Part shown: positions 14,087-59,274 of the stretch, in pieces
How the letters are laid out: every line of letters starts with the position of its first letter
Numbering within the stretch: position 1 is the first letter of the stretch
Source of the DNA: a virus
Lineage: Duplodnaviria; Heunggongvirae; Uroviricota; Caudoviricetes
Virus record (IMG/VR): IMGVR_UViG_3300047281_000124
Reading direction: 5' to 3' (one strand)
DNA length: 64,000 nt
Program-made: the position numbers and the translations under genes
Notes under the pieces: model-generated
The model's input: the letters and a program-made list of their open reading frames with translations, nothing else
Database searches by the model: none
Told to the model about the DNA's origin: nothing

Positions 14087-14091
14087 AATTT

Positions 14092-14478: not shown

Positions 14479-15278
14479 TGAACAAATTCTTCAAAATCTC
14501 TGCTATTCTCGCTGCCGTAGTTCTCGCAACCGGCTGTACTCGTATCGAAACCGGCGAAGTCGGTGTGCGATTGAACGCATCTAAGCAGATCGAAGGTACT
14601 GAACTGCAACCAGGCGGTTTCTACCAAACCTTGGTAGGTTCTGTATTGACATTTCCAGTTAAGGACTTGTCAATCAATATCGAGAATAAGTCTCCTATGG
14701 CTAGTGATAACTCGGCCTTGGCAGACTTCGACATGACTGTGGTTTATGCAATTAATCCAACTTCTGTATCTGAGCTGTACTCTAGCAAGTCGCGCGCTTT
14801 TCATTCCGAGTCTAAGGGCGATATTTTCCTCATGTACAACTATATGACAACTCTAGCCAATAACGCGGCTTATAAAGTTGTGCGTCAGTACAAGTCCTTG
14901 GAAGTTGCTGATAATCGTGCTAAGATTGAATCAGAGATTCGTGACGCAGTTCACGAGCAGTTGAAAGCTGAGAAGTTGGACACAGCTCTTAGCCTGACAG
15001 TTGTGCAAGTTCGTAGTATCTTGCCTAATGCTGAAATCTTGAAGTCTGCTACTGAGTACGTTAAAGCTCAAAATGAGTTGAAGATCAAAGAGACTGAAGT
15101 TGCTATCGCTAAGAAAGAGTCTGAGCGTATGGCTGCATTGAGTGCGAACTCCGCCACTTCTATTGCATATATGAGTGCTCAGGCTAATATGTTGATCGCT
15201 AAAGGTATTAGCGAAGGTAAAGTACATACTATTGTTGTTCCTATGGACTTCAAAGGTATGGTTAACGTAGGTAAGTAA
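14478..15278 (+). CDS. SPFH/band-7-like lipoprotein
   Basis: Lipobox LATGC; SPFH-like core with a coiled-coil region (QYKSLEVADNRAKIESEIRDAV). Confidence 0.5.
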   Translation: MNKFFKISAILAAVVLATGCTRIETGEVGVRLNASKQIEGTELQPGGFYQTLVGSVLTFPVKDLSINIENKSPMASDNSALADFDMTVVYAINPTSVSELYSSKSRAFHSESKGDIFLMYNYMTTLANNAAYKVVRQYKSLEVADNRAKIESEIRDAVHEQLKAEKLDTALSLTVVQVRSILPNAEILKSATEYVKAQNELKIKETEVAIAKKESERMAALSANSATSIAYMSAQANMLIAKGISEGKVHTIVVPMDFKGMVNVGK

Positions 15279-15322
15279 TTTGTTTAGTACGCTGTGTAAA
15301 TTACAGCGTACTAAATATTCAT

Positions 15323-15351
15323 TTGATTTGGCTCTTAAAGTTTGTTATAAT
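15323..15351 (+). promoter_or_regulatory. promoter: ATTCATTTGATT, 17-nt spacer, TATAAT
   Basis: Member of the promoter family. Confidence 0.6.
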
Positions 15352-15376
15352 TATTTATAGATTAAGAGAGAACCAA

Positions 15377-15670
15377 ATGCGTAAAATTGTTATTTGTATG
15401 GATGCTGGTATAGCGGGCAGTGATGCTTATGAGTTTTGGGAATTTCCTGATAGTGTAACTACTAAAGAATTAGACACTTTTGCTTGGGAAGCCGGAGTAG
15501 AGCACGCTGATATGTATGGTATTTACCCTGAGTATCAATACACAGAAGAAGACATAGAAGACGACCCAGAAAGTTATTCTGGTAATATTGAAGGTTACTG
15601 GGAATACTATGATTCTGAAAAACACGACGGCCACTCAATGACAGGCATTCCAGAGTGGAAACAAGCATAA
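15377..15670 (+). CDS. highly acidic, aromatic-rich small protein (candidate DNA mimic)
   Basis: 97 aa with a strong D/E/Y/W bias. Confidence 0.45.
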   Translation: MRKIVICMDAGIAGSDAYEFWEFPDSVTTKELDTFAWEAGVEHADMYGIYPEYQYTEEDIEDDPESYSGNIEGYWEYYDSEKHDGHSMTGIPEWKQA

Positions 15671-15746
15671 GCCAGGATAGCTCAGTCGGTAGAGCAGCGG
15701 ATTGAAAATCCGTGTGTGGGCGGTTCGATCCCGTCTCCTGGTACCA
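15671..15746 (+). tRNA. tRNA-Phe (anticodon GAA), CCA encoded
   Basis: GCCAGGATAGCTCAGTCGGTAGAGC...; anticodon loop TTGAAAA. Confidence 0.85.
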
Positions 15747-15751
15747 AATAT

Positions 15752-15861
15752 GCGCGATGTAGGCGAGAGGGGAAGCGGAAACGGCCCTAAACTGTATCGG
15801 GTGAAGGCGTCCACCTAGCAGTATCCTTTATCGTTGGTTCGATTCCAACCATCGCGCTCCA
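15752..15861 (+). ncRNA. atypical 110-nt tRNA-like element
   Basis: Perfect 7-bp acceptor GCGCGAT/ATCGCGC plus T plus CCA; canonical T arm GTTGG-TTCGATT-CCAAC. The roughly 85-nt interior does not fold as a standard D/anticodon region. Confidence 0.35.
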
Positions 15862-16216
15862 AAATTTAAAATATAATAAGACACGGGTTCGAGTCCCTTA
15901 ATGCTCGTATAAAGTCGTGCATTTAGCTTAGATGGACAAAGCAATATATTTTAAATACATATCGAAATTCCTGGACGAATATGTATTGTTAGAGCAACAT
16001 CTCTATCGTCAAAGTAGTTCCTAGTTGCAACTAGGGCTATTGGTTAAGTATATAATAGACTGCTAAACTTTATTCCACTATCCTCTAGTTAGGTTTGTGT
16101 GTAACTAACACATCCCATTCTCTAGTTATAGGCGCGAATGTCTTTTACACTCGATAAAGAGGGTACAAACCTAGCTAGTTACTAGGTTCAGGGCCACTTT
16201 TATATATTTAACCAAT

Positions 16217-16291
16217 GGCTTCAAAGTGTTCACGGACGCACACGGCACTGTCACTGCCGAAGAAGGGGATCGTTACCCCTTGAAGCCGCCA
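16217..16291 (+). tRNA. tRNA-Asp (anticodon GTC), CCA encoded
   Basis: Perfect acceptor GGCTTCA/TGAAGCC; anticodon arm CGGCA-CTGTCAC-TGCCG; T stem AGGGG/CCCCT with an unusual ATCGTTA loop. Confidence 0.65.
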
Positions 16292-16297
16292 AATTAT

Positions 16298-16386
16298 TCT
16301 CTGGTTGACGAATTGGTAAAGTCACTATATACGCGTTAGTAAAATAGCCCAAAGCTAAAATGGTTCGAATCCATTCCAGAGAGCCA
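16298..16386 (+). tRNA. atypical type-II tRNA-like gene (89 nt); anticodon not determinable
   Basis: Perfect acceptor TCTCTGG/CCAGAGA plus G plus CCA; T arm AATGG-TTCGAAT-CCATT; variable-arm hairpin TAGC-CCAAA-GCTA. The anticodon arm folds only as a 4-bp stem with a 9-nt loop. Confidence 0.45.
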
Positions 16387-16420
16387 ATTACAGACCCCGC
16401 CTAGAGCGGGTTTAATTATT

Positions 16421-16948
16421 ATGTCTAATATTTATCTATCAAGTGACCCTCACTTTGGGCATGAAAATATACTAAAGTTCACTAAGAGTGATGGAAGTCC
16501 TCTTAGAGTATTTGAAGATGCTGTTCATATGAACGAGTACATGGTTATGCAACACAATAGAGTTGTGCAACCCAATGACAAGTGGTATTGCTTGGGTGAC
16601 TTAGCGATGCACAAAAAGTTCCTACCGATCCTAAACCGCATGAATGGAGAAAAAATCCTAATTCGCGGAAATCACGACACTGAGAGTGCCAGCGAGTATC
16701 TAAAGTATTTCAAAGATGTACGAGGCAGTCATCAGCTAGAAGGTCTGCTACTTACACACATCCCTATTCATCCTGAAAGCCTTAGCCGATGGAAAGCAAA
16801 CGTGCATGGGCATCTGCATTCTAATAGAGTAATGTTAGATGGTAAGATTGATCCTAGGTATTACTCGGTATGTATGGAACAACTCGATGACTATACTCCA
16901 GTGAGTATCGAACAGGTTAAGAAAAACATACTTGAAGCTCTTTCTTAA
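16421..16948 (+). CDS. calcineurin-like metallophosphoesterase (Ser/Thr phosphatase-like)
   Basis: The metallophosphoesterase DPHFGH, GNHD and GHLH motifs are present. Confidence 0.7.
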   Translation: MSNIYLSSDPHFGHENILKFTKSDGSPLRVFEDAVHMNEYMVMQHNRVVQPNDKWYCLGDLAMHKKFLPILNRMNGEKILIRGNHDTESASEYLKYFKDVRGSHQLEGLLLTHIPIHPESLSRWKANVHGHLHSNRVMLDGKIDPRYYSVCMEQLDDYTPVSIEQVKKNILEALS

Positions 16949-16960
16949 ATTTGTTATAAT
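16932..16960 (+). promoter_or_regulatory. promoter: TTGAAG, 17-nt spacer, TATAAT, then TTAATACTTAGAA
   Basis: Overlaps the stop codon of the upstream gene. Confidence 0.55.
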
Positions 16961-16984
16961 TAATACTTAGAAAGCAATAATACT

Positions 16985-17452
16985 ATGACTGAACAACAAG
17001 AACTTTGGCCCTTCCCGCAAGTTATGCCCGAAAAAATGGCTATCTCCCTCGAAACCTTACTTAAAGCACTAGACGACATGGAAACAAATACTAAAGCAGA
17101 ACAACGTCAACGTGACGAAGACTACCGCCTTGATCTTATGGCTAAGGCTACTATCCTAGGTGTTGGCCTTGTGCACATCTATGATACTGAGAATCACAAA
17201 GGTGGTTTGACTGTAGCCTTCCGTAAAGTTTCTCAATTCGGCTCTGGTAAGATGGTGCAGTGCGCTGTGAATACCTGCTCTAATAAAGATTCTTTTAGCA
17301 AGAAAATCGGTGCTAAAGGTGCTCTTGAGAAGTTCTTCAATGGCGAGACTATTGAGCTTCCAATCCTTGAAATTTGGCCGGAGGCTGAGCTGAACTGGGC
17401 TGTGAAAACTTCCTTTACTAATCTTTACGCTGTGCTTAGCCGCAGCTGGTAA
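16985..17452 (+). CDS. hypothetical protein
   Basis: 155-aa ORF. Confidence 0.45.
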   Translation: MTEQQELWPFPQVMPEKMAISLETLLKALDDMETNTKAEQRQRDEDYRLDLMAKATILGVGLVHIYDTENHKGGLTVAFRKVSQFGSGKMVQCAVNTCSNKDSFSKKIGAKGALEKFFNGETIELPILEIWPEAELNWAVKTSFTNLYAVLSRSW

Positions 17453-17460
17453 TTAAATTT

Positions 17461-17546
17461 GTCCCTGTGGCGTAATTGGTAGCCGCATCAGACTTAAAAT
17501 CTGAAGTCGTAATGGCGTGCCGGTTCGACTCCGGCCAGGGACACCA
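17461..17546 (+). tRNA. tRNA-Leu (anticodon TAA), type II, CCA encoded
   Basis: Acceptor GTCCCTG/CAGGGAC; anticodon arm TCAGA-CTTAAAA-TCTGA; T arm GCCGG-TTCGACT-CCGGC. Confidence 0.8.
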
Positions 17547-17553
17547 CTACATC

Positions 17554-17627
17554 GGGCCGATAGCTTAATGGTAAAGCTTCCGACTCATAATCGGCGGAGT
17601 CTTGGTTCAATTCCAAGTCGGCCCACC
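17554..17627 (+). tRNA. tRNA-Met or tRNA-Ile2 (anticodon CAT), CCA encoded
   Basis: Acceptor GGGCCGA/TCGGCCC; D arm GCTT/AAGC; anticodon loop CTCATAA; T arm CTTGG-TTCAATT-CCAAG. Confidence 0.75.
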
Positions 17628-17656
17628 ACTTTTAGCGTATTGTGTCAGCCTTTATC

Positions 17657-17750
17657 AGAGTTGACGACTTTGAGTACGCTAACTAATTGTTGTAATTCCT
17701 TCAAAATGAAGGCATCTAAGACGCGGGTTCGACTCCCGCCAGCTCCACCA
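17657..17750 (+). other. degenerate tRNA-like element or tRNA pseudogene
   Basis: Canonical T arm GCGGG-TTCGACT-CCCGC plus CAGCTCC plus A plus CCA at the 3' end. Only a 6 of 7 acceptor match is found upstream, and no clean cloverleaf forms. Confidence 0.3.
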
Positions 17751-18019
17751 AAAACACATTAAAGCTACTAGTCGCTGTGGGACACATTCCCTCTTTAAGT
17801 GTAATGTGTTTCTGATGGGGCTGACCCGGCTTTCGATTGGGTGACATAGTAGCGACGGCAACACGGTAGGCGATGACCGTTAATCAAGCAAACTAAGTAA
17901 ACGCAAACGACACACAGTTCGCATTAGCTGCCTAAACTCAGCTTAGGGTTTTGATAGGTTTTCCTCGTAACAGAATAAACCTATCCCTTATTTTTATTCC
18001 CTAAACTAAAGCAAACTAA

Positions 18020-18301
18020 ATGAAATTTCTTATCTGCCCCTCATGCCCTGAACAAATCGAAAACGGTGAGACCGAAGGGCTTTTCCAAGATGGTTATGGT
18101 ACATTCTATAACTACTCTGTCAAATTTGATGAAGACGAAATGATTACTATCACTGATTCAGTGGGTCGTTATGTTCCTCTTGATATTGTAGAAGTTGCTG
18201 GTCTTGCTAATATTCTTAATCGCATTGTGCGTTACCAGCGCGGCAAGGCTCTTGCCGAACAGTATCTCGTAGATGAGTTGGTTGATGGCGCTACGTTCTA
18301 A
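18020..18301 (+). CDS. hypothetical protein
   Basis: 93-aa ORF. Confidence 0.4.
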   Translation: MKFLICPSCPEQIENGETEGLFQDGYGTFYNYSVKFDEDEMITITDSVGRYVPLDIVEVAGLANILNRIVRYQRGKALAEQYLVDELVDGATF

Positions 18302-18542
18302 CCCAATTCCAGCGATTTTAGATCTAGTACCGTATGAAGATACAGTACTAGATGTACTACTCTGCGATCAGATGTGCAAAGTACTTATTCCTGCTGTAAA
18401 GCATAAAGTAAGTAATAGTATGTTATGCTTACTATTAGCACATCTAGCAGAGTATAAACTCATAACAATGACAGAACTAACTTGGCCTAGTACCAAGGGT
18501 AGTGTTTTAATACTTAAAAGGATTCCAGATGGCAACGTCTAA
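18273..18542 (+). CDS. hypothetical protein
   Basis: 89-aa ORF. Confidence 0.35.
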   Translation: MSWLMALRSNPIPAILDLVPYEDTVLDVLLCDQMCKVLIPAVKHKVSNSMLCLLLAHLAEYKLITMTELTWPSTKGSVLILKRIPDGNV

Positions 18543-18924
18543 AGGTGGCTCTAAAGCCAATCAAGCAGCATCATACAAAGCCAACAAGCGTTGGGAGTCT
18601 AATCGTAAGCGTCGTCTTGAGCGTACCTTGAAGGCCCAGCCTACTAACCAACAAGTCATTAATGCCTTGAAAGGTGGTATGGTTTATCGTCGTAAGACCC
18701 CGACTAATGCTACATGGTCTGCAAGCTGGATTCGTGTTGCTAAGATCATGAAGGAATTTACCGGTCGATTTGATCCAGTAATCATGGGTTCTAATATTGA
18801 TGCGGCTAAAGCGGCTCTGTCTCGCCCCGGCCCTCGGTCACAGGAAGTCAACAAGTTTAAAGCAGGCTCTGATAAGGGCTTCTTCACTCTTGAGACTCGA
18901 CTGTATAAAGGCCCTAAGGCATGA
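18529..18924 (+). CDS. basic (K/R-rich) hypothetical protein, possibly nucleic-acid binding
   Basis: KANKRWESNRKRRLERT basic N-terminus. Confidence 0.4.
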   Translation: MATSKGGSKANQAASYKANKRWESNRKRRLERTLKAQPTNQQVINALKGGMVYRRKTPTNATWSASWIRVAKIMKEFTGRFDPVIMGSNIDAAKAALSRPGPRSQEVNKFKAGSDKGFFTLETRLYKGPKA

Positions 18925-19163
18925 TTTGGTATGCCATATTCGCTCTTGCAACTGCACTAACTGCTATATATGAGATTTTATACCCAGTTATGTTGCATGA
19001 GCGTATGTCTGAGGGCACTGTAGAGAGTCAGAAGATGATATACTTTGTATTCTTCTGTATTGTACTATTAGTCGCCCCTGTAGTATTTCTTAGCTGCATT
19101 ATCCCTTCGATGGGCGAACGCTTCAGAAATTCTTTAGCTAAGGGCTTGTTCCCTAAGGAATGA
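18921..19163 (+). CDS. small membrane protein
   Basis: Two hydrophobic helices. Confidence 0.4.
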   Translation: MIWYAIFALATALTAIYEILYPVMLHERMSEGTVESQKMIYFVFFCIVLLVAPVVFLSCIIPSMGERFRNSLAKGLFPKE

Positions 19164-19255
19164 AATTTTGCAGTTGTTTTGTTCTTCAAAAGACTGTATA
19201 ATACATACTTAGACAGCGATAAAGCAGTTATTGCTTTGATTCAAGAAATATACAC

Positions 19256-19284
19256 TTGAATGATACATCAAATCGCTGTATAAT
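19256..19284 (+). promoter_or_regulatory. promoter: TTGAAT, 17-nt spacer, TATAAT, then TTAATACTTAAAC; a second promoter-like site lies about 75 nt upstream
   Basis: Member of the promoter family. Confidence 0.55.
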
Positions 19285-19313
19285 TAATACTTAAACAAGC
19301 AATATAACACATC

Positions 19314-19589
19314 ATGAATATCATTACATTTACATACACAAAAGCAGACGGCAAAGTATCTCAACGAGTTCTCGTGCCACTTATTACTCCTAATAAAATG
19401 TATGAAGGTATTGATATTTCAGAGTTGGGCGAGGTCGTAGATCAAGTTCAGTTTACATTAGATATGGAAGCTGCACGCAATAAGTATCTCGAAGAAATCG
19501 CTAAAATCGAGGCACAGTACGATGTTAAGAATCAGTACCGTCGCTTTGACCCAGCTAAAATGACAAATATTGTCGTGGATGTGATTTAA
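19314..19589 (+). CDS. hypothetical protein
   Basis: 91-aa ORF. Confidence 0.4.
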   Translation: MNIITFTYTKADGKVSQRVLVPLITPNKMYEGIDISELGEVVDQVQFTLDMEAARNKYLEEIAKIEAQYDVKNQYRRFDPAKMTNIVVDVI

Positions 19590-19622
19590 GCCTAAGGTAA
19601 GCAGGCTCTAACTGCTTCCAAG

Positions 19623-19698
19623 TGCCCTCATAGCTCATCTGGTAGAGCAACCGCCTTGTAAGCGGTAGGTGACCTGTTCAAGTCGGGTTGAGGGCACC
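19623..19698 (+). tRNA. tRNA-Thr (anticodon TGT), CCA encoded
   Basis: GCCCTCATAGCTCATCTGGTAGAGC...; anticodon arm ACCGC-CTTGTAA-GCGGT. Confidence 0.85.
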
Positions 19699-19805
19699 AT
19701 ATCTTAGCATACTATTCGCCACTTAATCAATATATGTGGAGTAGCCTGCAGCAATTACTTTCCACGGGTAATCGGGAGCACCCGACATGGGTAGTATGCT
19801 AAGAT
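19699..19805 (+). ncRNA. large structured element closed by a perfect 15-bp inverted repeat
   Basis: TATCTTAGCATACTA at 19699-19713 pairs with TAGTATGCTAAGATA at 19791-19805; internal hairpins in the 77-nt loop. Confidence 0.4.
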
Positions 19806-19964
19806 ATGGTGTTATGCGTCCTACCCCCGTAGAATAACAACTTAATTGAGAGCGAAGCTACTCTCAGCCTACTTAATATACTTAGTTAGGACAACAGGTC
19901 AAGAAAATTGAGTTTGTAATTTTTTCACATATATGTTATAATTATTTATTGATTAGGACATATT

Positions 19965-20570
19965 ATGAAAAATATATTGATGACAATTTGCCAAGAGTAC
20001 GGGTACAAAGATCCGCCCAATAAATCAGGTATTACCCTAGAGATGCTAATAGACGGAGATCTTTCAGGCAGTACTATAGCTTACGTAAGAGCCTTAACGG
20101 GTTGTGCAAAAGATGCTGTTACTCGTGCTACTAAAAATACTTTTATAGATAGACCTATATCTAATTCCAGTATACATAAGTTCTTACTAGCTAAATGGGA
20201 TTTACGAAACTGTGCTTGCTGTAATACTATAAAAGATATAGTTGAGTTTTATAGCAATAAGGATAAAGGTGACGGTATAGGTACCTCCTGTAAGGATTGT
20301 AATAAACAAGCAAGAAAAGATACCTATGCTAAAGACCCTTCTAAAGAACTTGTTGCTAATAGCATACGTAGTCACAGGGTACATTTGCATCAAACCCCTC
20401 CTTGGGCAAATTTAGATAAGATAAAAGATATTTATCTAAATAGGCCTGAAGGGTATCACGTAGATCACATAATACCCTTAAATGGCGTTAATGTTAGCGG
20501 TCTTCATGTAGAAAATAATCTACAGTACCTTACAGAGGCAGCTAACCTTAGTAAGGGTAACAAATTTTAA
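19965..20570 (+). CDS. HNH homing/nicking endonuclease (paralog 3 of 3)
   Basis: YHVDHIIPLNGVNVSGLHVENNLQYLTEAANLSKGN. Confidence 0.75.
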   Translation: MKNILMTICQEYGYKDPPNKSGITLEMLIDGDLSGSTIAYVRALTGCAKDAVTRATKNTFIDRPISNSSIHKFLLAKWDLRNCACCNTIKDIVEFYSNKDKGDGIGTSCKDCNKQARKDTYAKDPSKELVANSIRSHRVHLHQTPPWANLDKIKDIYLNRPEGYHVDHIIPLNGVNVSGLHVENNLQYLTEAANLSKGNKF

Positions 20571-20644
20571 CTGCGTTCTTCTAGTGGTTCGGAATACGGG
20601 TTTTCATCCCGTCAACAGGGGTTCGATTCCCCTACGCAGTACCA
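20570..20644 (+). tRNA. tRNA-Glu (anticodon TTC), CCA encoded
   Basis: Acceptor ACTGCGT/ACGCAGT; anticodon arm ACGGG-TTTTCAT-CCCGT; T arm AGGGG-TTCGATT-CCCCT. Confidence 0.75.
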
Positions 20645-52880: not shown

Positions 52881-53159
52881 TTAATATTGCCCGCTTTCGA
52901 GGACTTGTTTATCTAAAATAGTAGTAGACTTCCACTTGGCGAACTCTGCTTGATATATAAGCATAGCCCCGTCTGTTAATCCATCTAAGTTTATATCAGT
53001 TAACCCTGATAAGGTTTGTGAACCTGCGATACCTTGAGGCCCTTGAGCCGCTGAAATGATAGGTTCATGTACTTCTATAACTTGAGTAATAAAGTTACTA
53101 GTAGGTGTAGCTATAACTTCTATAACGGTACTTGTTACTGCTATATTATTATTGCTCAT
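52881..53159 (-). CDS. hypothetical protein
   Basis: 92-aa ORF. Confidence 0.4.
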   Translation of the reverse strand: MSNNNIAVTSTVIEVIATPTSNFITQVIEVHEPIISAAQGPQGIAGSQTLSGLTDINLDGLTDGAMLIYQAEFAKWKSTTILDKQVLESGQY

Positions 53160-53746
53160 CTAGTTACCTCTTTTACTAAGGTTAGATTGCCTCCAATAAA
53201 GGGAGTAACTTGTCCTCCACTAGATACCATTTCTAAGCTATATACTGCAGTACTAAAGGTGAAGCCTGCTGTAGTTATAGCAGGTATATTAAGAGCAATA
53301 GTCTTTTTAATATTATCTATAAAGATTCCTGAATTTTCAGTTGTTAGTTCTAAGATAATATCAGATGAGTCTACTTTAGCTCTTATCTGCATTCTAGCAG
53401 TATAGTCTGCTGTATCTACTGGCTTATTATACTCTACTACACCACCTGTAGTATAAGATTTAAACCCTAAACTATTAACACTGTTGATGGTGATAGTATC
53501 TGTAGTAACAGAGGATACTTGGTGATATGTACTATCGGAGTTTAAGTCTGCCATGCCTGCAATGTTAGTAAATTTTACACGCCATTCTACGGGTATACCG
53601 TGAGCTGGCGCAGTTACTACTAAAGGCGCTGATTTTGTAATATCTGTAATAGGTACATATACTCTTACAGAAGACTCCCAACGTAGTACTTCATTGAATG
53701 TAGCACCTTGGTAGATTTTAAAATTTAGTTTTGCCGGAGCACTCAT
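53156..53746 (-). CDS. hypothetical structural protein
   Basis: 196-aa ORF. Confidence 0.4.
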   Translation of the reverse strand: MSAPAKLNFKIYQGATFNEVLRWESSVRVYVPITDITKSAPLVVTAPAHGIPVEWRVKFTNIAGMADLNSDSTYHQVSSVTTDTITINSVNSLGFKSYTTGGVVEYNKPVDTADYTARMQIRAKVDSSDIILELTTENSGIFIDNIKKTIALNIPAITTAGFTFSTAVYSLEMVSSGGQVTPFIGGNLTLVKEVTR

Positions 53747-54084: not shown

Positions 54085-54175
54085 CGGTCGTCTCCTCTGT
54101 AAAGCAATTTTTGTAGCATCTGAATTTCAGACGCTTATATGGTTTTCATATATTATATCACATAGGCAGCTTAGG

Positions 54176-54240
54176 GTCAAGACAAAAAAATCCCGACCCT
54201 ACTTTAGTTTAGGGTCGGGATTTTTTTTTTTTGTCTTAAG
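54176..54240. terminator. strong bidirectional terminator
   Basis: A7-ATCCCGACCCT...AGGGTCGGGAT-T12. Confidence 0.75.
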
Positions 54241-55123
54241 GGGAGAGAATGTCTTGTAAATATAATTTTGGAGATACATTGATATGGTCTAATTGAATAT
54301 CTAATTTTTTTCTCATAACTTCCGAGCTTTTGTCTAATAAGTAGGCTTTTACCTCTTTTTGGATATTATCTATAACAATAGGGTTAGCACTGTTATTGGC
54401 CCAAAGAAATATATTATTATAGTATCTATATTCTCTGGAAGTAATAAACCCCAACTCTTTTAAAGTAGGCGTATTGGTAAAAATATTAGATCTTTTATTA
54501 GAAACTACAGCTAAAGGTATTAACTTATTTAAAGATACTTGAGAAGATATTGCATCAGGAGTACTAATACCAATGTCTAAGTGTCCCCCTAAGACTGCTG
54601 TTACAACAGGCGCTCCGCCGTGGTAAAGTACCTCTATCAGATTAGTACCTAAAGAATACTTTTTCATTAAAGGTACAAATACTGAAGTTCCAGAGATACC
54701 ATAAGATACATCTTTATACTTACTATACTCAATAACCGAACTATAACTATAAAAAGAACTACTAGAGTTACTAAATATCACAGAAGGCACACTACCTAAA
54801 TAGGCTATAGGCATAATATCATCTACAGAGCTAAAGTTTTTATGCTTAGAGTCTAAAGATTCCCACGAATGTGGGGACCCCAATAGTAAAGATACTTTAT
54901 TTGTTTTAGTAGCTAAGTACTGTGCTGCTAATAAACCTTGAGCACCCGGTTTCGACTCTATTACTACAGGTAGGTTTAAAATTTTACTTAAAAACGGCTG
55001 AAGCTCTAAACTGTACCTATACATTAGGCCCCCTGTAGAGCTTGCCACTATTAAAGGAACCGTCTCGTTAGCATAAGTGCTAATGCTTATAAATATTAAT
55101 AAAGATACAAGTAATTTAGTCAT
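54236..55123 (-). CDS. secreted TctC/Bug-family periplasmic solute-binding protein homolog
   Basis: Signal peptide, then P.VVIESKPGAQGLLAAQYLA....VSLLLGSP, which aligns with the Bug/TctC core (P.VVENRPGAGG...DGYTLLLG). Confidence 0.5.
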   Translation of the reverse strand: MTKLLVSLLIFISISTYANETVPLIVASSTGGLMYRYSLELQPFLSKILNLPVVIESKPGAQGLLAAQYLATKTNKVSLLLGSPHSWESLDSKHKNFSSVDDIMPIAYLGSVPSVIFSNSSSSFYSYSSVIEYSKYKDVSYGISGTSVFVPLMKKYSLGTNLIEVLYHGGAPVVTAVLGGHLDIGISTPDAISSQVSLNKLIPLAVVSNKRSNIFTNTPTLKELGFITSREYRYYNNIFLWANNSANPIVIDNIQKEVKAYLLDKSSEVMRKKLDIQLDHINVSPKLYLQDILSP

Positions 55124-55472
55124 TAATTTTATGAGATATATTATAAGTTACACCGTATTTTTTATAGGTATTATACAGCAGCCTATTTCTTAAAACAACG
55201 ACTTCTGGAGCATTAGATGCTTTTAATATCTCTAAATAGTTAGAAGCGTTATCTCTCGTATCAAATGCTCTAGTAAAAATAGCAATATTTTCAGATATAG
55301 AGCTACTGAAGCCGCTTTCTATATACCCCGGTAGTCGTGAAACAAATACTTCAAAAGGGTCTAATATTTCAGTAATCTCATTAATAGAAAACCAGGAGAT
55401 ACGGCCCTCACCCGTACTAAAAATCCAAGGGTCTTTTTCGGATTTAATTATAGTAGTTACAACTGTTGTCAT
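55116..55472 (-). CDS. hypothetical protein
   Basis: 118-aa ORF within the low-GC island. Confidence 0.4.
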   Translation of the reverse strand: MTTVVTTIIKSEKDPWIFSTGEGRISWFSINEITEILDPFEVFVSRLPGYIESGFSSSISENIAIFTRAFDTRDNASNYLEILKASNAPEVVVLRNRLLYNTYKKYGVTYNISHKIND

Positions 55473-55484
55473 TATTTTTCCATT

Positions 55485-56480
55485 CTAGCTTATAGTATAG
55501 AGATTAGATCGTACAGCTAGTTGTGCCTGTATATCTATCTTTGTAGATGCCCGTTTAAGGCCTTGTTTATAAAAATCAAATATATCACTACTACGGTGTT
55601 TAAGTAGAAACTGATCTCGTAAGCTTATAAAAGCACTCACACTTTTAGGGGATTTATATATCAAAGGCTTTTTTAAGTTATATAAAATCTGTCCGTAAGT
55701 ATTATAATTTTTATAATTAGTTAGTACGTGCAACTGCTTAACTAATATATTTGTATAGTTGGGGTCCCAGTAAAAATTAATTTTATCTATTCCAGGAATT
55801 TTTATGTTACTTCCATAGCTTAAACAAACCATATCATTAAAAACAATACCACTTTTATTGCCTGCATTAAATAAGGTAGTTCTGTCCTTGCCCCAAATAA
55901 GTGCAACTCTTTTATTTTCCATATTACTAGGCACAACATATTTATGTATATCCTCCCAAAACCAGTTATTAGGGCTATACCTTGTACCTATATGTTCAAC
56001 CCACTCAGTGTCATAGTTATATATACTAAAGTTTTTAACGTTCCCGAAATATTCAGAATAGTCGCACACTTGTGTAATAGATTCTAAGCCTAGTTCTTTT
56101 AGGTAAGGAAAAGAGTTATGGTAGAGTTCACCATTGTGATTTTCGTCTACACCAAATGCTGAATCCTGTTTAAACGCTCCAACACATACTACCTTGTCTA
56201 GTTTAATATTATTATAGTGAAAAGTCTCTAAAATATTAGTTGAGTCATATCCCCCACTGTAAAATAGTACTACATAGTCATAGGTATCTCTAATGCGTTG
56301 AGCCTGTTCCCTATAGTAGTAATCTAGTGAGTAATTTGGTTCTGTTTTCCAATTAACGCTAGTGTATATACTATCATAATAGTTATACTTTAGTATTTGA
56401 TTATTGCTATTGCAATATTTAATAGCCTCAAACTTGTTTATGAAGGTAGTATTATCTTCACTATAATAAAAACTACTCAT
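55485..56480 (-). CDS. PP-loop ATP pyrophosphatase family protein (SGGxDS)
   Basis: VVLFYSGGYDSTN motif; N- and Y-rich with low GC. Confidence 0.5.
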   Translation of the reverse strand: MSSFYYSEDNTTFINKFEAIKYCNSNNQILKYNYYDSIYTSVNWKTEPNYSLDYYYREQAQRIRDTYDYVVLFYSGGYDSTNILETFHYNNIKLDKVVCVGAFKQDSAFGVDENHNGELYHNSFPYLKELGLESITQVCDYSEYFGNVKNFSIYNYDTEWVEHIGTRYSPNNWFWEDIHKYVVPSNMENKRVALIWGKDRTTLFNAGNKSGIVFNDMVCLSYGSNIKIPGIDKINFYWDPNYTNILVKQLHVLTNYKNYNTYGQILYNLKKPLIYKSPKSVSAFISLRDQFLLKHRSSDIFDFYKQGLKRASTKIDIQAQLAVRSNLYTIS

Positions 56481-56875
56481 TATGTGTTGTTATTTGTACT
56501 ATTTAACATATTAATAATACTATCTAGTTGTTCCGGTGTTAGTACAGGAGGTGCAGCTTGTGCCATAATTTCAGACACATTAACATTAGGTACCCCTTTC
56601 GGCGTGCTTGCTAACAATAAGTCTGATAAAGCTTGAGCATCTACTTTTGAGGCAATATCTTCAAAATTAGAGGCAGAGGCAACTTCAATTTTTCTTTGAA
56701 GCAGCCACGTAGGGGCTTTTGACTGGATTAGTTCTTCGAGTGCTGTTCCAGTTATGTACTTTCCATCTACAACAGGTACATCTATAGGAAATATACCTAA
56801 GTTATCTCCTTGATATAAGTACATTACCGTGATTGTTCCTGTAGACGCGCCTGCGTTAACTATTTTATATTCCAT
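56480..56875 (-). CDS. hypothetical protein
   Basis: 131-aa ORF. Confidence 0.4.
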   Translation of the reverse strand: MEYKIVNAGASTGTITVMYLYQGDNLGIFPIDVPVVDGKYITGTALEELIQSKAPTWLLQRKIEVASASNFEDIASKVDAQALSDLLLASTPKGVPNVNVSEIMAQAAPPVLTPEQLDSIINMLNSTNNNT

Positions 56876-56887: not shown

Positions 56888-57826
56888 TTAAGATATTGAA
56901 CCACTGCGTGTACCTGTGGCAGTATACGTAATATTACCATTTCCTACAATTGCAGCACCACCTGCGCCAGGTGCTGCAGTACCTTGCCTACCCCACACAT
57001 TACCCCCGCCAGAACTACCTAAACCTCCTCCGACTCCGCCGTGATTACCATAACGATTATCGCCGTATCCGCCAATATAACCCCCAGGACCTCCAGAGCC
57101 GCCAGCGGTAAGAGTGCCACCACTACCTGCAGTGTTATGGGTGTCATTTTGCTGTGTAGCTCCATAGTTATTTATAGTCACTGTTACGTATCTTTGGGCT
57201 CTCCCACCAAGGCCCGCTGGAAGGCCTGCACCGCCGCCGCCGCCGGAACCTCCAAAGGGGTAATCTCCGTGATACCCCCCACCACCACCGCCGCCACCGC
57301 CGGCTATAGTACCGTTATTTTGTAATGTTAAGGCAACTGTGGCGTTTAAAGCAGGGCCTCCAGCACCTCCTGTAGAAGATAGGCCGCTATACCCAGTACC
57401 TCCGGTATTTTCTGAACCTTGCGCACTAACATAGTGTCCTCTGCCACCTAACCCACCCGCCCCTACTATTGAGTGATTATTAATTAAGGTAACACCATTA
57501 GGGAAAGAACCAGTAACTATTAAAGCGTATGACGACGTATTAGCAGCACCTATATTACCAGAAGTTGTAGCCTGTACCCGTGAAGTACCGTTCCAACCTG
57601 CTGCAATAGCTGCATTACGTAAATCTATACTATAACCAGAAGCTAGGGTAAACACAAAAACATTGCTTTTTCCATGCCCGTTACTCATAGATATAGTTCC
57701 TGAAGCTACCCCAAATAGTGCTCGCACAATCGAGTCATTTAAGCTAAGGCTAAGAGTACCTGTACGATTAAGTTCTACATTTACTTGATTAAATGAGATT
57801 GAATTAGGGGATACGGGTAAAGTCAT
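56888..57826 (-). CDS. glycine-rich tail/fibre-associated protein
   Basis: Long poly-Gly tracts (GGGGGGGGGYHGDYPFGGSGGGGG). Confidence 0.45.
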   Translation of the reverse strand: MTLPVSPNSISFNQVNVELNRTGTLSLSLNDSIVRALFGVASGTISMSNGHGKSNVFVFTLASGYSIDLRNAAIAAGWNGTSRVQATTSGNIGAANTSSYALIVTGSFPNGVTLINNHSIVGAGGLGGRGHYVSAQGSENTGGTGYSGLSSTGGAGGPALNATVALTLQNNGTIAGGGGGGGGGYHGDYPFGGSGGGGGAGLPAGLGGRAQRYVTVTINNYGATQQNDTHNTAGSGGTLTAGGSGGPGGYIGGYGDNRYGNHGGVGGGLGSSGGGNVWGRQGTAAPGAGGAAIVGNGNITYTATGTRSGSIS

Positions 57827-59274
57827 TTAATACCTCTTATTTCTTCACGAAGCTCTTTAATAGCTTCAATTAATAATCCTACCATATTACCATAAGCTAC
57901 TGTTAAGGTTTTATTCTCGTCCTGTAGTTGAACAATAGCTTCAGGTAGCACTTTTTGTACTTCTTGTGCTATTACACCTGTTTGACGGGTTGTAACACGA
58001 TCAGTACGATCAAAAGTATAGCCACCAAGCTGGCATACTTTATCCAAAGCGTTTTCAATTCTAGTGATATTAGTTTTAAGACGAATATCAGAAGGTGCAG
58101 TAGTAGAACCGTACGCTGTAATATTACCTAGCATTACTAAGTCTCCTCCCGGGCCTATGTTACCTGAGTATGTTCCATTATTACTAAAGTTAATATACCC
58201 GTCCAAGGTCCAATAGAGCCCTGTATCAGCAGCCCCCTCAGAGGTAAATGCAAGACTAGGAGAGGCGGCTGTACCATTAGTTAGACTTACTTTTCCTGTT
58301 GAGGTTATAGAGCCAAAAGTAACACCATTACTAGTACCTACACTCTGGTTAATAGTGTAAGCAGTAATATTAGACGAAGTTCCTGTAGTATTTTGGTTTA
58401 GGGTAGGAAAAGTACAATTAGTTAAATTACCTGAACTAGGTGTACCTAGCACAGGAGTTACAAACGTAGGACTAGTAGCTAATACTACAGCCCCTGAGCC
58501 TGTCGAAGTTGTGGTACCCGTACCACCATATCCTACACCAATTGTACTGCCATTATATATTGTACCAGTACCCAAAGTTTTATTAGTTAAACTTTGAGTA
58601 GCTGCCAGTAGTGCAATAGTATCTGAAGTTACTAAAGGTATTGTGTGCCTTTGTGTAGCATTTCCTCCAATAGTTGTAACAATTACACCAGCAGTTGCAT
58701 CTGTAAAACTTACTTGTCCTGATAGGGTGTGATTACCACTAAAAATTCCTGATAACACTCCGGCACTATACGTCTTATTAGTAAACGTTTGAGCGGCTGC
58801 TAATAGTGCTAAGGTATCGGAAGTTACAGAAGGTAAGGTATGTTGAAGTGCGGAAGTTGGGCCTATTTTTGTACTAATAATAGGAGAAGTACCGTTACTA
58901 AAGGTTTGTGCATTTGTAAAAGTATGCGTACCCCCTACAGTAACGATTAAGCTAGCCCCTACTGTAGAAGAAGCCGCAAGGGCGGCCACCCCTGAGGTAC
59001 TAAGCGTAGTAAATGCTCCCGTACTTGTAGTAGTAGCGCCTACGCTCCCGTTAATATTAATGTTATATGCACTAGATAGAGGTGCCCAGGTGCTACCATT
59101 ATACTTTTCCTGATAAAGGCTACTAGCATTCCATCTAATAGCATTTACAGGTAAATTAGTAGCAGCTACGTGAGCCGAATTAAGCCCTAAGGCTATGTCA
59201 TCTAATCTAGCATCTATTTGAGCTAGCACATTAGTGTATGTGCTAGAAACTGTGGGCAAGTTATGATCTGCCAT
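57823..59274 (-). CDS. tail fibre protein with a C-terminal intramolecular chaperone (S74) domain
   Basis: T/S/G-rich repeats; C-terminus ...PSDIRLKTNI...TVAYGNMVGLLIEAIKELREE. Confidence 0.65.
   Translation of the reverse strand: MADHNLPTVSSTYTNVLAQIDARLDDIALGLNSAHVAATNLPVNAIRWNASSLYQEKYNGSTWAPLSSAYNININGSVGATTTSTGAFTTLSTSGVAALAASSTVGASLIVTVGGTHTFTNAQTFSNGTSPIISTKIGPTSALQHTLPSVTSDTLALLAAAQTFTNKTYSAGVLSGIFSGNHTLSGQVSFTDATAGVIVTTIGGNATQRHTIPLVTSDTIALLAATQSLTNKTLGTGTIYNGSTIGVGYGGTGTTTSTGSGAVVLATSPTFVTPVLGTPSSGNLTNCTFPTLNQNTTGTSSNITAYTINQSVGTSNGVTFGSITSTGKVSLTNGTAASPSLAFTSEGAADTGLYWTLDGYINFSNNGTYSGNIGPGGDLVMLGNITAYGSTTAPSDIRLKTNITRIENALDKVCQLGGYTFDRTDRVTTRQTGVIAQEVQKVLPEAIVQLQDENKTLTVAYGNMVGLLIEAIKELREEIRGIK

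What the first reader, a model, noticed from the sequence alone, without database searches (positions are those of the whole stretch)
54236..56875. Low-GC four-gene island in the tail module: PP-loop ATPase plus secreted TctC/Bug-family binding protein
The segment between the strong bidirectional terminator at 54176-54240 and the Gly-rich fibre gene is noticeably AT-richer than the flanking tail genes. It encodes non-structural-looking proteins: an SGGYDS PP-loop ATP pyrophosphatase (AsnB, QueC, TilS, TtcA superfamily), a signal-peptide protein with clear TctC/Bug-family blocks, and two unknowns. A periplasmic solute-binding-protein homolog in a lytic phage tail region is unusual. The PP-loop enzyme could be a nucleic-acid or tRNA modifier or an amidotransferase; TilS-like is one possibility, given the three CAU tRNAs. 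The cassette looks horizontally acquired.
Basis: partly seen in the sequence, partly recalled or inferred. Interest (0 to 1): 0.7.

Follow-up and report, generated by a model that had tools for sequence, protein, structure and literature searches.

The report
Phage PP-loop enzyme plus TctC cassette
The four genes are real and are a cut-down copy of a widespread, so far undescribed gene cassette of aquatic phages that pairs ATP-using carboxylate-activating enzymes with exported carboxylate-binding proteins and usually sits right behind a glycine-rich tail-fibre tip gene; what it makes is still unknown.

Summary

Comparative data do. Three distant relatives lack the genes. A close relative (flanks 81-96% identical) carries a seven-gene version whose proteins are only 24-63% identical.

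The PP-loop family has about 1,500 clusters at 50% identity, is essentially phage-restricted and is unannotated. In 45 non-redundant loci it co-occurs with paralogous PP-loop proteins, exported TctC proteins, sometimes a TctA permease, and oxygenases. PP-loop and TctC genes form translationally coupled pairs, and 72% of loci follow a Gly-rich Gp38-like adhesin. The 131-aa gene travels with that adhesin; the window keeps only PPa, a small protein and TctC.

Best model, inferred: TctC captures a periplasmic carboxylate for uptake and PPa adenylates and amidates it. Adhesin or envelope modification is a rival. One cultured phage, Pseudomonas phage Cygsa01, has a related arrangement.

The parts
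56888..57826 (-). Gly-rich (26% Gly) Gp38-like tail-fibre tip adhesin, 312 aa. It ends in the conserved C-terminal motif GNxNITxYxxTGTRxGx(I/V)x.
   Evidence: PHROG tail fiber hits 7.9e-9 and 1.4e-5, and Pfam GP38 below threshold at 0.011. The precomputed GP38 hit is unmarked, which that tool defines as E at most 1e-5. The C-terminal motif is shared with L004, L006 and about 20 lineage-B loci. A Gly-rich protein lies within 4 genes upstream of PPa in 26 of 36 loci, against a 7.9% background.
56480..56875 (-). 131-aa small partner protein: an N-terminal three-stranded sheet plus helix, a disordered linker and a C-terminal amphipathic helix. It is a member of the small-protein family (c5/c58) found between the Gly-rich adhesin gene and PPa, and it probably belongs to the adhesin module.
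   Evidence: hhalign against the c5/c58 family gives 92.7% probability, E 4.4e-7. The AF2 model has pLDDT 58, about 75 for residues 1-55. Foldseek against the PDB found nothing significant. It occurs next to GP38-like genes without any PP-loop gene in L085/L086, and weakly in L070 and L082. It is co-duplicated with the Gly-rich gene and PPa in L048.
55485..56480 (-). PPa: a 331-aa stand-alone AsnB-type PP-loop synthetase domain, inferred to be a carboxylate-adenylating amidoligase. It has no glutaminase domain. The PP-loop is S75-G-G-Y-D-S80.
55116..55472 (-). sm118: a 118-aa small cytoplasmic protein of a conserved cassette family (motifs PW ... LPG[YF] ... FDTxxNA). Its fold was not determined. 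Its end overlaps the TctC start by 8 nt.
   Evidence: The family cluster is present in 17 loci. The family HMM scores 5e-37. Distant relation to c73, which precedes other PP-loop paralogs: hhalign 83%. Alignment.
54236..55123 (-). 295-aa TctC/Bug-family solute-binding protein with a Sec-type signal peptide (MTKLLVSLLIFISISTYA|NE). The carboxylate 'pincer' loop reads ASSTGGLMY, so the canonical Asp is replaced by Tyr.
   Evidence: Pfam PF03401 3.1e-22. BugD 4e-13, Bug27 6e-12. Signal-peptide-like N-termini occur in 39 of 43 phage TctC proteins and in 0 of 82 PPa proteins. Motif comparison with PMC5812351. The best cellular homologs are 26-29% identical.
54184..54227 (.). Strong hairpin (18 bp, A-run and T-run on either side) that ends the fibre/cassette operon. 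It is conserved in the relative L083.
54152..54180 (-). Near-consensus promoter (TTGACC-17-TATAAT with an extended TG) that restarts transcription for the next tail genes.
   Evidence: 11 of 12 matches. The same element is present in L083.
57823..59274 (-). Context: the distal tail fibre (483 aa) with a C-terminal S74 intramolecular chaperone domain. It precedes the Gly-rich adhesin.
   Evidence: Pfam Peptidase_S74. PHROG long tail fiber distal subunit 2e-43. Homologous to the Cygsa01 531-aa fibre, 1.6e-24.

Best explanation
The segment combines two things: the small partner gene of a Gly-rich Gp38-like tail-fibre adhesin (131 aa), and a trimmed three-gene copy (PPa, sm118, TctC) of a swappable accessory cassette that is essentially restricted to phages.

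The full cassette holds:
- 2-4 paralogous stand-alone PP-loop enzymes (PPa, PPa2, PPb); the AsnB-type fold was shown only for PPa.
- 1-3 exported TctC-family binding proteins, often as translationally coupled PP-loop/TctC gene pairs.
- In some phages a TctA permease, an O2-dependent hydroxylase (FA_hydroxylase or Rieske, in the same slot) and a radical-SAM/SPASM enzyme.

Working model for the window:
- The genes are transcribed late, as the 3' end of the tail-fibre operon.
- TctC is secreted to the periplasm of a probably betaproteobacterial host. There it binds a carboxylate-bearing compound and hands it to a TTT permease (the host's TctAB here, a phage TctA elsewhere).
- In the cytoplasm PPa adenylates a carboxyl group (ATP to AMP + PPi) and transfers it to ammonia or an amine, trapping or converting the compound as an amide. 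This resembles uptake coupled to activation.

Shown: the gene families, the fold, the export signals, the gene pairing, the module swapping and the distribution.
Inferred: the catalytic chemistry, that TctC and PPa act on the same compound, the use of a host permease, and the biological pay-off. The ligand and the product are unknown.
For: - Fold and motif of PPa.
- TctC family membership and homology to solved Bug proteins that bind Asp, nicotinate and other carboxylates.
- Export signals on 39 of 43 phage TctC proteins and on none of the PP-loop proteins.
- TctC is present in 27 of 31 loci and PPb in 28 of 31 loci with enough downstream sequence.
- PP-loop to TctC adjacency is 33 observed against 9.1 +/- 2.6 in gene-order shuffles; 27 of 29 pairs overlap or are at most 10 nt apart.
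- Genuine TctA permease genes occur in some cassettes, Pfam 7.4e-39.
- Paralogy of PPa, PPa2 and PPb.
- The close relative L083 has the 7-gene version in the same slot, so the window copy is a reduced one.
- Established knowledge: orphan Bug/TctC proteins share a few TctAB permeases, and TTT genes sit next to enzymes that use the imported carboxylate (PMC5812351).
- Host clue: a betaproteobacterial-type tmRNA in the window.
- All family-invariant residues are kept in the window protein, and the ORFs are intact and coupled.
Against: - No ligand, product or activity is known.
- No TctA or TctB gene lies in the 64-kb window; the remaining 33 kb of the contig were not seen.
- The window's TctC subfamily has lost the canonical Asp of the carboxylate pincer motif, D to Y/H.
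- Late co-transcription with tail-fibre genes is unusual for a nutrient-uptake function.
- The strong preference for a position just behind Gly-rich adhesin genes (72% of loci) and the Cygsa01 arrangement, which has no TctC gene in the stretch examined (about 3.6 kb downstream of the Gly-rich gene), are not explained by an uptake model.
- The window lacks PPb, PPa2 and any hydroxylase, so it may perform only part of the pathway, or none of it.
Confidence: 0.42

Rival explanations
1. Adhesin maturation or modification. The PP-loop enzymes act on the Gly-rich Gp38-like adhesin, or on its small partner. They would adenylate a side-chain or the strictly positioned C-terminal carboxylate (...TGTRxGx(I/V)x-COOH) to amidate, cyclise or cross-link it, much as lasso-peptide cyclases (AsnB homologs) do. 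The oxygenases would hydroxylate the Gly-rich or collagen-like repeats.
For: - A Gly-rich protein lies within 4 genes upstream of PPa in 26 of 36 loci, against a 7.9% background, in at least 3 unrelated phage backbones.
- The conserved C-terminus always ends five residues after TGTR.
- L048 has two Gly-rich genes, two small partners and two PPa genes.
- The cultured phage Cygsa01 has fibre, Gly-rich gene, PP-loop, small ORF, PP-loop, with no TctC gene in the stretch examined.
- The genes lie in the same late operon.
- Lineage-B adhesins carry collagen-like GXY runs next to a P4H-like 2OG oxygenase.
Against: - None of 13 sampled loci encoding relatives of the Gly-rich protein has PP-loop or TctC genes. 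Other cultured phages with such adhesins also lack them.
- About 28% of cassettes have no Gly-rich neighbour.
- Exported TctC and TctA, which are core partners, have no obvious role in cytoplasmic virion assembly.
- The model of the 131-aa protein gave no RRE-like or any other significant fold match.
Confidence: 0.22
2. Receptor masking or envelope remodelling linked to the adhesin. The exported TctC-like protein and the PP-loop amidoligases would alter or occupy a carboxylate-bearing envelope component, for example by turning uronic-acid or peptide carboxylates into amides. This would block superinfection or stop progeny from adsorbing to debris. It is analogous in logic to T5 Llp or Cor, which are encoded beside receptor-binding genes.
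For: - The position is directly behind receptor-binding genes, and expression is late.
- Signal peptides are present on the TctC proteins.
- Membrane FA_hydroxylase and TctA occur in fuller cassettes.
- In the T4-like lineage the neighbouring genes include an exported beta-barrel protein and a SleB-type hydrolase.
- From my own knowledge, not tested here: AsnB homologs amidate surface-glycan and peptidoglycan carboxylates in bacteria (WbpS, LtsA/AsnB1).
Against: - No similarity to Llp, Cor or any known exclusion or defence protein; PADLOC gave nothing.
- TctA co-occurrence points to transport.
- There is no glycosyltransferase or nucleotide-sugar gene in the core cassette.
Confidence: 0.13
3. 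A decaying remnant. The window's three cassette genes are leftovers of the seven-gene version and no longer have a function.
For: The close relative L083 has PPb, PPa2 and a second TctC, all of which the window lacks. The TctC pincer Asp is lost.
Against: - All ORFs are intact, translationally coupled and identical in an independent assembly.
- The window PPa keeps every family-invariant residue.
- The D-to-H/Y TctC subtype is conserved in L018, L019 and L022, where it scores 2e-49 to 2e-62.
Confidence: 0.1
4. A tRNA or nucleic-acid modifier (TilS, TtcA or QueC-like), as the first reader proposed in connection with the three tRNA-CAU genes.
Against: - Those hits cover only the 145-175-residue core, while AsnB-type enzymes align over 210-248 residues with higher Z.
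- There is no ATP_bind_3, tRNA_Me_trans or QueC Pfam hit.
- There is no RNA-binding domain.
- The conserved partners are TctC, TctA and oxygenases.
- The cassette lies more than 34 kb from the tRNA array.
- The 'MnmA' label in Cygsa01 rests on the PP-loop motif alone.
Confidence: 0.03

Closest known systems
Asparagine synthetase B synthetase domain and its relatives beta-lactam synthetase, carbapenam synthetase CarA and TsnB9 (lasso-peptide cyclases belong to the same branch)
   Different: No detectable sequence similarity, even with a profile. There is no N-terminal Ntn glutaminase domain; the N-terminal 70 residues are family-specific instead. The family is essentially phage-restricted. It comes as 2-4 paralogs paired with TctC genes.
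Orphan Bug/TctC solute-binding proteins of Betaproteobacteria (BugD, BugE, Bug27, AdpC) in tripartite tricarboxylate transporters
   Same: Pfam TctC domain, size, signal peptide, the Gly-Gly of the pincer loop and the YxGxAP...LGGxxD block. It is encoded without its own permease, like orphan Bugs (PMC5812351).
   Different: It is encoded by a lytic-type phage inside a tail-fibre operon, and is only 26-29% identical to any cellular protein. The pincer Asp is replaced by Tyr. It is translationally coupled to the cassette's small protein here, and to PP-loop enzymes in other phages.
Cyanophage PstS, a phage-encoded periplasmic phosphate-binding protein that works with the host PstCAB permease (from my own knowledge)
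   Same: A phage supplies only the exported binding protein of a binding-protein-dependent uptake system.
   Different: A different transporter class (secondary TTT, not ABC) with an unknown ligand. It is coupled to cytoplasmic ATP-dependent enzymes, and it sits in the tail-fibre operon rather than among metabolic genes.
tctA reported as an unexplained putative auxiliary metabolic gene in SUP05 viruses (PMC4164917; listed in PMC6359870)
   Same: TTT components on phage contigs; TctA is present in several cassettes here.
   Different: Those reports give a domain hit only. They describe no cassette, no TctC and no PP-loop partners.
T2/T6/S16-type Gp38 adhesins with glycine-rich motifs at the tail-fibre tip
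   Same: A Gly-rich protein encoded directly after the distal fibre gene, with PHROG tail-fibre hits and a weak GP38 hit.
   Different: The Pfam GP38 score is below threshold in my own scan (16 bits against 25). The protein has a distinct conserved N-terminus and C-terminal TGTR motif, and it is followed by a small partner and the PP-loop/TctC cassette.
Pseudomonas phage Cygsa01 (PP179332), genes 00008-00012
   Same: Homologous fibre (1.6e-24) and Gly-rich protein (1.6e-14), followed by two SGGxD(S/C)T PP-loop proteins related to PPb/c140, with a 90-aa ORF between them.
   Different: The PP-loop proteins are of the PPb type, not PPa. No TctC gene lies in the stretch examined (about 3.6 kb downstream of the Gly-rich gene). 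They are annotated 'MnmA', which is unsupported. It is the only such record among 50,697 phage genomes.

Membership tests
PP-loop ATP pyrophosphatase (adenine nucleotide alpha-hydrolase) superfamily | SGGxDS PP-loop motif after the first strand | tested here: met
   S75-G-G-Y-D-S80 is invariant in 33 aligned family members.
PP-loop ATP pyrophosphatase (adenine nucleotide alpha-hydrolase) superfamily | Rossmann-like alpha/beta nucleotide-binding fold | tested here: met
PP-loop ATP pyrophosphatase (adenine nucleotide alpha-hydrolase) superfamily | ATP cleavage to AMP + PPi with an adenylated substrate intermediate | not testable with these tools
   Needs a biochemical assay.
Asparagine synthetase B family (Pfam Asn_synthase PF00733, class II amidotransferases) | Match to the family HMM | tested here: not met
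   No Pfam or NCBIfam hit at E up to 1. A profile search of PDB sequences finds no AsnB-type chain.
Asparagine synthetase B family (Pfam Asn_synthase PF00733, class II amidotransferases) | N-terminal Ntn glutaminase domain with a catalytic Cys | tested here: not met
   Only about 70 residues precede the PP-loop. Those residues are shared with the PPa2 paralogs. No sequence library detected a glutaminase domain.
Asparagine synthetase B family (Pfam Asn_synthase PF00733, class II amidotransferases) | Synthetase-domain architecture beyond the PP-loop core | tested here: met
TilS (tRNA-Ile lysidine synthetase) | ATP_bind_3 domain plus C-terminal tRNA-binding domains | tested here: not met
TctC/Bug family (TTT solute-binding proteins) | Pfam TctC domain above the gathering score | tested here: met
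   79.8 bits against a cut-off of 27, E 3.1e-22, residues 44-258.
TctC/Bug family (TTT solute-binding proteins) | Homology to solved Bug/TctC structures over both lobes | tested here: met
   BugD 4e-13 (residues 16-277), Bug27 6e-12, and 8 further TTT binding proteins.
TctC/Bug family (TTT solute-binding proteins) | N-terminal export signal | tested here: met
   The N-terminus MTKLLVSLLIFISISTYA|NE passes a simple hydrophobicity/charge rule. 39 of 43 phage homologs pass it too. No dedicated predictor was available.
TctC/Bug family (TTT solute-binding proteins) | Carboxylate 'pincer' motif P-F-x-A-G-G-x-x-D (PMC5812351) | tested here: inconclusive
   The window protein has A-S-S-T-G-G-L-M-Y: GG is kept, while P and D are lost. 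27 other phage TctC proteins keep the D, and the window's subtype has H or Y. The review notes that hydroxyl-bearing substitutes occur.
TctC/Bug family (TTT solute-binding proteins) | A TctA/TctB permease to dock on | tested here: not met
   None in the 64-kb window. TctA (Pfam 7.4e-39) is present in other cassettes. The host genome is unknown.
Gp38-type tail-fibre adhesin (for the upstream 312-aa protein) | GP38 family HMM match, and a position after the distal fibre gene | tested here: inconclusive
   Pfam GP38 scores 16 bits, below the cut-off of 25. The precomputed hit is unmarked. PHROG tail fiber 7.9e-9. The position after an S74-chaperone fibre is as expected.
Lasso-peptide-like RiPP system (AsnB-like cyclase + RRE + leader protease) | PqqD-like RRE partner and a transglutaminase-type protease | tested here: inconclusive
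   The 131-aa model has low confidence (pLDDT 58), with no significant PDB match. Among the recurrent clusters that were annotated there is no protease; not every cluster was scanned.
Compositionally foreign genomic island | Deviant GC and deviant synonymous codon usage | tested here: not met
   GC is low (0.330), but GC3 of 0.25-0.27 equals that of the neighbours. The homologous cassette in L083 shows the same pattern.
Known anti-phage defence or counter-defence components | Match to PADLOC models | tested here: not met
   No hit for 9 cassette proteins.

The most novel reading that the evidence does not exclude
The PP-loop/TctC cassette is a phage-restricted, adhesin-linked chemical toolkit. 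Paired carboxylate binders and AsnB-type adenylating enzymes, with hydroxylases and a radical-SAM enzyme in the full versions, would build a carboxylate-derived amide compound or modification. This would be installed on the Gly-rich tail-fibre adhesin or on the host receptor or envelope, and would so tune host range or exclusion. That would be an enzymatic layer of host recognition with no described precedent.
Probability: 0.18. Interest if true: 0.88.

Novelty: new variant of a known kind. Interest (0 to 1): 0.62.

Why it matters
- The 331-aa protein represents an unannotated and essentially phage-restricted enzyme superfamily of about 1,500 clusters at 50% identity. Its fold points to ATP-dependent carboxylate activation.
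- It is systematically paired with exported TTT binding proteins. TTT components have so far only been listed in phages as unexplained 'auxiliary' genes.
- If the uptake-and-activate model holds, phages reprogramme which organic acids an infected cell imports and what it does with them. That is relevant to carbon flow in fresh water, where such hosts are abundant.
- If the adhesin-linked model holds, it would reveal enzymatic modification as a new determinant of phage host range.
- Either way there is now a defined cassette, a minimal three-gene version (this window) and one cultured phage (Cygsa01) with related PP-loop genes. The question is therefore experimentally approachable.

Tried and rejected
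1. Sequence-library annotation of the 331-, 131- and 118-aa proteins. Pfam, PHROGs, NCBIfam, PADLOC, and PDB searches with phmmer and a profile hmmsearch gave nothing usable.
2. The RRE/lasso-peptide idea for the 131-aa protein. The MSA had only 4 sequences, the AF2 model reached pLDDT 58, and Foldseek against the PDB gave a best E of 0.15. The idea is unsupported but not strictly refuted.
3. The TilS/tRNA-modifier reading. Rejected on fold extent, the absence of the expected domains, and gene context.
4. Recent capture of TctC from a host. Rejected, because cellular homologs are at most 29% identical.
5. Codon-usage evidence for foreignness. Rejected, because GC3 is uniform.
6. An obligate link between the Gly-rich adhesin and the PP-loop genes. 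Rejected in the reverse direction, since none of 13 adhesin-relative loci carries the cassette.
7. Looking for the PP-loop family in cultured phages and in cellular genomes. PPa and PPb gave no hit in 50,697 phage records. The Cygsa01 PP-loop protein matched only its own genome. Among 185,579 species genomes there was a single hit, on a 6.8-kb MAG contig. That genome scan relies on two exact peptide patterns, so absence is not proven.
10. Literature searches found no description of this cassette.


Full report
**1. What is in the sequence**

Four minus-strand ORFs occupy 54236-56875: 131 aa (56480-56875), 331 aa (55485-56480), 118 aa (55116-55472) and 295 aa (54236-55123). They are packed for coupled translation. 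The stop of the 131-aa gene shares one base with the ATG of the 331-aa gene, and the 118- and 295-aa genes overlap by 8 nt (ATGACTAA).

They form the 3' end of an operon that runs from the J-like central fibre (1553 aa; phrog_31, 4e-82) through a 483-aa distal fibre with an S74 chaperone domain and a 312-aa Gly-rich protein. An 18-bp hairpin flanked by A- and T-runs (54184-54227) closes the operon. An 11/12 match to the sigma-70 consensus with an extended TG (54180-54152, minus strand) restarts transcription for the next tail genes.

The backbone is a large siphovirus-type phage. It has a DnaB-type helicase, a PolA-type polymerase, SbcC, ribonucleotide reductase, PhoH, a lambda-type tape measure and 24-25 tRNA genes. 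It has no close relative among 50,697 GenBank phage records.

**2. Composition**

The segment is the lowest-GC 2.64-kb stretch of the window, at 0.330 against 0.397 overall. Only 0.5% of sliding windows are as low, and all of them overlap it.

The deficit lies in codon positions 1 and 2:
- GC3 of the four genes is 0.25-0.27.
- GC3 of the flanking tail genes is 0.17-0.30.
- The mean GC3 of 91 genes is 0.327 +/- 0.072.

The homologous cassette in a relative shows the same pattern, with cassette GC 0.320, flanks 0.388 and equal GC3. Composition is therefore real but is not evidence of foreign origin.

**3. The proteins**

- *295 aa.* Pfam TctC 3.1e-22, well above the curated cut-off. It matches ten solved TTT binding proteins, led by BugD (4e-13) and Bug27 (6e-12), and the alignment spans both lobes. 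The N-terminus MTKLLVSLLIFISISTYA|NE looks like a Sec signal. A simple charge and hydrophobicity rule is passed by 39 of 43 phage TctC homologs and by none of 82 PPa or 36 PPb proteins. The family's carboxylate 'pincer' signature P-F-x-A-G-G-x-x-D (PMC5812351) reads A-S-S-T-G-G-L-M-Y here. The closest phage relatives have His or Tyr in place of Asp, while 27 other cassette TctC proteins keep the Asp.
- *131 aa.* It is homologous to the small proteins that precede PPa in other phages (hhalign 92.7%, E 4.4e-7). Its model is weak (pLDDT 58). It shows an N-terminal three-stranded sheet plus helix, a disordered linker and a C-terminal amphipathic helix, and it has no significant PDB neighbour.
- *118 aa (sm118).* A conserved cassette family found in 17 loci. 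It is distantly related to the small proteins that precede other PP-loop paralogs (hhalign 83%).

**4. The cassette**

Fifty-one IMG/VR loci plus several metagenome contigs encode PPa relatives. De novo clustering of all neighbouring genes and Pfam scans of representatives define a recurrent cassette, in this order:
- a Gly-rich protein of 300-600 aa;
- a small protein of about 130 aa;
- PPa;
- PPb, about 270 aa, also with SGGxDS;
- sm118;
- either an FA_hydroxylase of about 147 aa (1e-16) or a Rieske oxygenase, occupying the same slot;
- a radical-SAM/SPASM enzyme, in some loci;
- PPa2, about 390 aa;
- one to three TctC-like proteins;
- TctA (7.4e-39), in some loci;
- 2OG-Fe(II) oxygenases, in some loci.

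The paralogy is supported by hhalign: PPa against PPa2 at 100%, PPa against PPb at 96% over the PP-loop core, and TctC against a second TctC-like cluster at 99.6%.

Frequencies among 45 non-redundant loci:
- 29 have at least two PPa-type genes.
- Of 31 loci with at least 6 kb downstream, 28 have PPb, 27 have TctC and 17 have the FA_hydroxylase.
- Of 36 loci with at least 3 kb upstream, 26 have a protein with at least 13% Gly within four genes upstream. The background is 7.9% of genes, and most of those background genes are these same proteins.

TctC genes are immediately preceded by a same-strand PP-loop gene far more often than chance. There are 33 such adjacencies against 9.1 +/- 2.6 in gene-order shuffles, with a shuffle maximum of 16. 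The median spacing is -1 nt.

The cassette occurs in at least three unrelated backbones:
- T4-like genomes of about 170-216 kb that carry PhoH;
- a lineage with a fibre protein of about 2,000 aa;
- the window's siphovirus type.

The PP-loop family is essentially phage-restricted:
- None of 50,697 GenBank phage records encodes PPa or PPb.
- A pattern scan of one genome from each of 185,579 species found a single 6.8-kb contig in an Aquiluna MAG.
- A few database clusters carry NCBI MAG labels.

**5. The Gly-rich neighbour**

The upstream proteins are 13-39% Gly. In about 23 loci, including the window, they end in the same motif with the C-terminus at a fixed distance: GNxNITxYxxTGTRxGx(I/V)x-COOH. 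The window protein ends ...GNGNITYTATGTRSGSIS. Lineage-B versions also carry collagen-like G-X-Y runs of up to 26 triplets. L048 has two Gly-rich genes, two small partners and two PPa genes.

One cultured phage shows a related layout. In Pseudomonas phage Cygsa01 (166 kb, host P. syringae), a fibre homologous to the window's 483-aa fibre (1.6e-24) and a Gly-rich protein homologous to the 312-aa protein (1.6e-14) are followed by two SGGxD(S/C)T proteins with a 90-aa ORF between them. These two proteins are related to PPb and to cluster 140. Their 'MnmA' annotation rests on the PP-loop motif alone, and the paper that describes the phage does not discuss them.

The link is one-directional. Thirteen sampled loci encoding relatives of the Gly-rich protein have no PP-loop or TctC gene. 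A GP38-like gene followed by a homolog of the 131-aa protein occurs without PPa in L085 and L086. I therefore assign the 131-aa gene to the adhesin module, with moderate confidence. I treat the cassette as an accessory that preferentially sits behind such modules.

**6. Is it an acquired island?**

Yes, but the evidence is comparative, not compositional.
- Three relatives (L056-L058; the 196-aa neighbour is 69% identical) keep the downstream order of 113, 196, 92, 551 and 890 aa. They fill the slot after the J-like protein with unrelated genes.
- A close relative, L083, has flanking proteins 81-96% identical and the same terminator and promoter. In that slot it carries a small gene, PPa, PPb, sm118, TctC, PPa2 and a second TctC.
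- The L083 cassette proteins are only 63% (PPa), 58% (small partner), 28% (sm118) and 24-28% (TctC) identical to the window's.

The slot therefore exchanges modules, and the window holds a reduced version. The TctC was not taken recently from a host. Cellular homologs are at most 29% identical, whereas phage copies in L018, L019 and L022 score 2e-49 to 2e-62.

**7. How it most likely works**

Shown:
- a cytoplasmic AsnB-type PP-loop enzyme with all family-invariant residues;
- an exported TctC-family binder;
- tight PP-loop/TctC gene pairing across the family;
- TctA permeases in some cassettes;
- a position at the end of a late tail-fibre operon.

From established knowledge:
- AsnB-type synthetase domains adenylate a carboxylate and pass it to ammonia or an amine.
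- Bug/TctC proteins bind carboxylates.
- Orphan Bug/TctC proteins share TctAB permeases and are often encoded next to enzymes that use the imported acid (PMC5812351).

Inferred: TctC captures a carboxylate compound in the periplasm for TTT-mediated uptake, and PPa activates and amidates it in the cytoplasm. The fuller cassettes would add hydroxylation and further amide-forming steps.

A betaproteobacterial host is likely. The window encodes a full-length betaproteobacterial-type two-piece tmRNA, and the fibre and adhesin resemble those of Limnohabitans and Sphaerotilus phages.

Weak points:
- The ligand and the product are unknown.
- There is no permease gene in the window.
- The pincer Asp is lost.
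- The uptake model explains neither the late expression nor the adhesin-adjacent position.

Those last two points keep two rivals alive: adhesin modification, and receptor or envelope modification. A decayed remnant is less likely, because the ORFs are intact and the invariant residues conserved. The TilS-type reading is not supported.

**8. Novelty and verdict**

TTT genes on phage contigs have been mentioned only as unexplained domain hits (PMC4164917, PMC6359870). I found no description of the PP-loop family, of its pairing with TctC, or of its link to Gly-rich adhesins.

The components belong to known superfamilies, so I rate it a new variant of known kinds, not categorically new. It is still a large, coherent and experimentally approachable unknown.

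Noticed in passing
window 17647-17990 (+): A full-length betaproteobacterial-type two-piece (permuted) tmRNA sits inside the tRNA array. Rfam RF01850 scores 138.6 bits against a gathering score of 84, E 3e-42, and RF04321 scores 138.5 bits. ARAGORN gives the tag peptide ANDTQFALAA. A phage-borne tmRNA of this type is notable in itself and points to a betaproteobacterial host.
   Followed up: partly
window 2949-20644 (+): An array of 24 tRNA genes by ARAGORN, including three with a CAU anticodon and two tRNA-Arg(ACG). Rfam adds one more tRNA-like match at 11482-11569 (35.9 bits) that ARAGORN did not report.
   Followed up: no
L068 (Pseudomonas phage Cygsa01, PP179332) 4879-7028: Two genes annotated 'tRNA-specific 2-thiouridylase MnmA' have no tRNA_Me_trans hit. 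The only Pfam signal is a sub-threshold match of the PP-loop motif in one of them (Asn_synthase, 0.045); the other has no hit. They are PPb/c140-type cassette proteins placed behind a Gly-rich adhesin gene, so the annotation is probably wrong.
   Followed up: yes
L036 1-2860, L051, L032 and other lineage-B loci (the gene upstream of c5/PPa): The Gly-rich proteins carry collagen-like G-X-Y runs of up to 26 triplets containing Pro. They are encoded near a prolyl-4-hydroxylase-like 2OG-Fe(II) oxygenase (cluster c3, Pfam 2OG-FeII_Oxy_3 1e-14). This raises the possibility of hydroxylated collagen-like phage fibres.
   Followed up: partly
L004 12627-13946: The cassette's radical-SAM enzyme has its SPASM domain (residues 8-88) N-terminal to the radical-SAM core (residues 145-320). 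This is the reverse of the usual order.
   Followed up: no
L007 13126-14409; also L030, L044, L046-L048: Phage contigs encode a full-length TctA permease (Pfam 7.4e-39, about 8 predicted membrane segments) within the cassette. No TctB was recognised.
   Followed up: partly
L008, L010, L014, L018, L046 compared with L015-L017 and the lineage-B loci: A Rieske oxygenase (c30) and a 147-aa FA_hydroxylase occupy the same slot next to PPa and PPb in different lineages, as if they were interchangeable hydroxylases.
   Followed up: no
L083 1233-2467 compared with L084 1366-2319: In the close relative L083, the position where L084 has an intact 317-aa GP38-like gene holds only 43- and 60-aa called genes. 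This could be a disrupted adhesin gene or an assembly or frameshift artefact.
   Followed up: no
window 53156-53746 (-): The 196-aa tail-region protein downstream of the cassette (phrog_1084, 2e-22) has a weak match to the ubiquitin-E1 FCCH domain (Pfam 4.7e-6, below threshold). It is conserved in all relatives and was useful as a backbone marker.
   Followed up: no
L019, L022, L015-L017, L024 (downstream of the cassette): In the T4-like lineage the cassette is followed by an exported 186-aa beta-barrel-like protein (c17) and a SleB-type cell-wall hydrolase with an N-terminal hydrophobic segment (c15). The cassette therefore sits between the adhesin genes and envelope- or lysis-related genes.
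   Followed up: no
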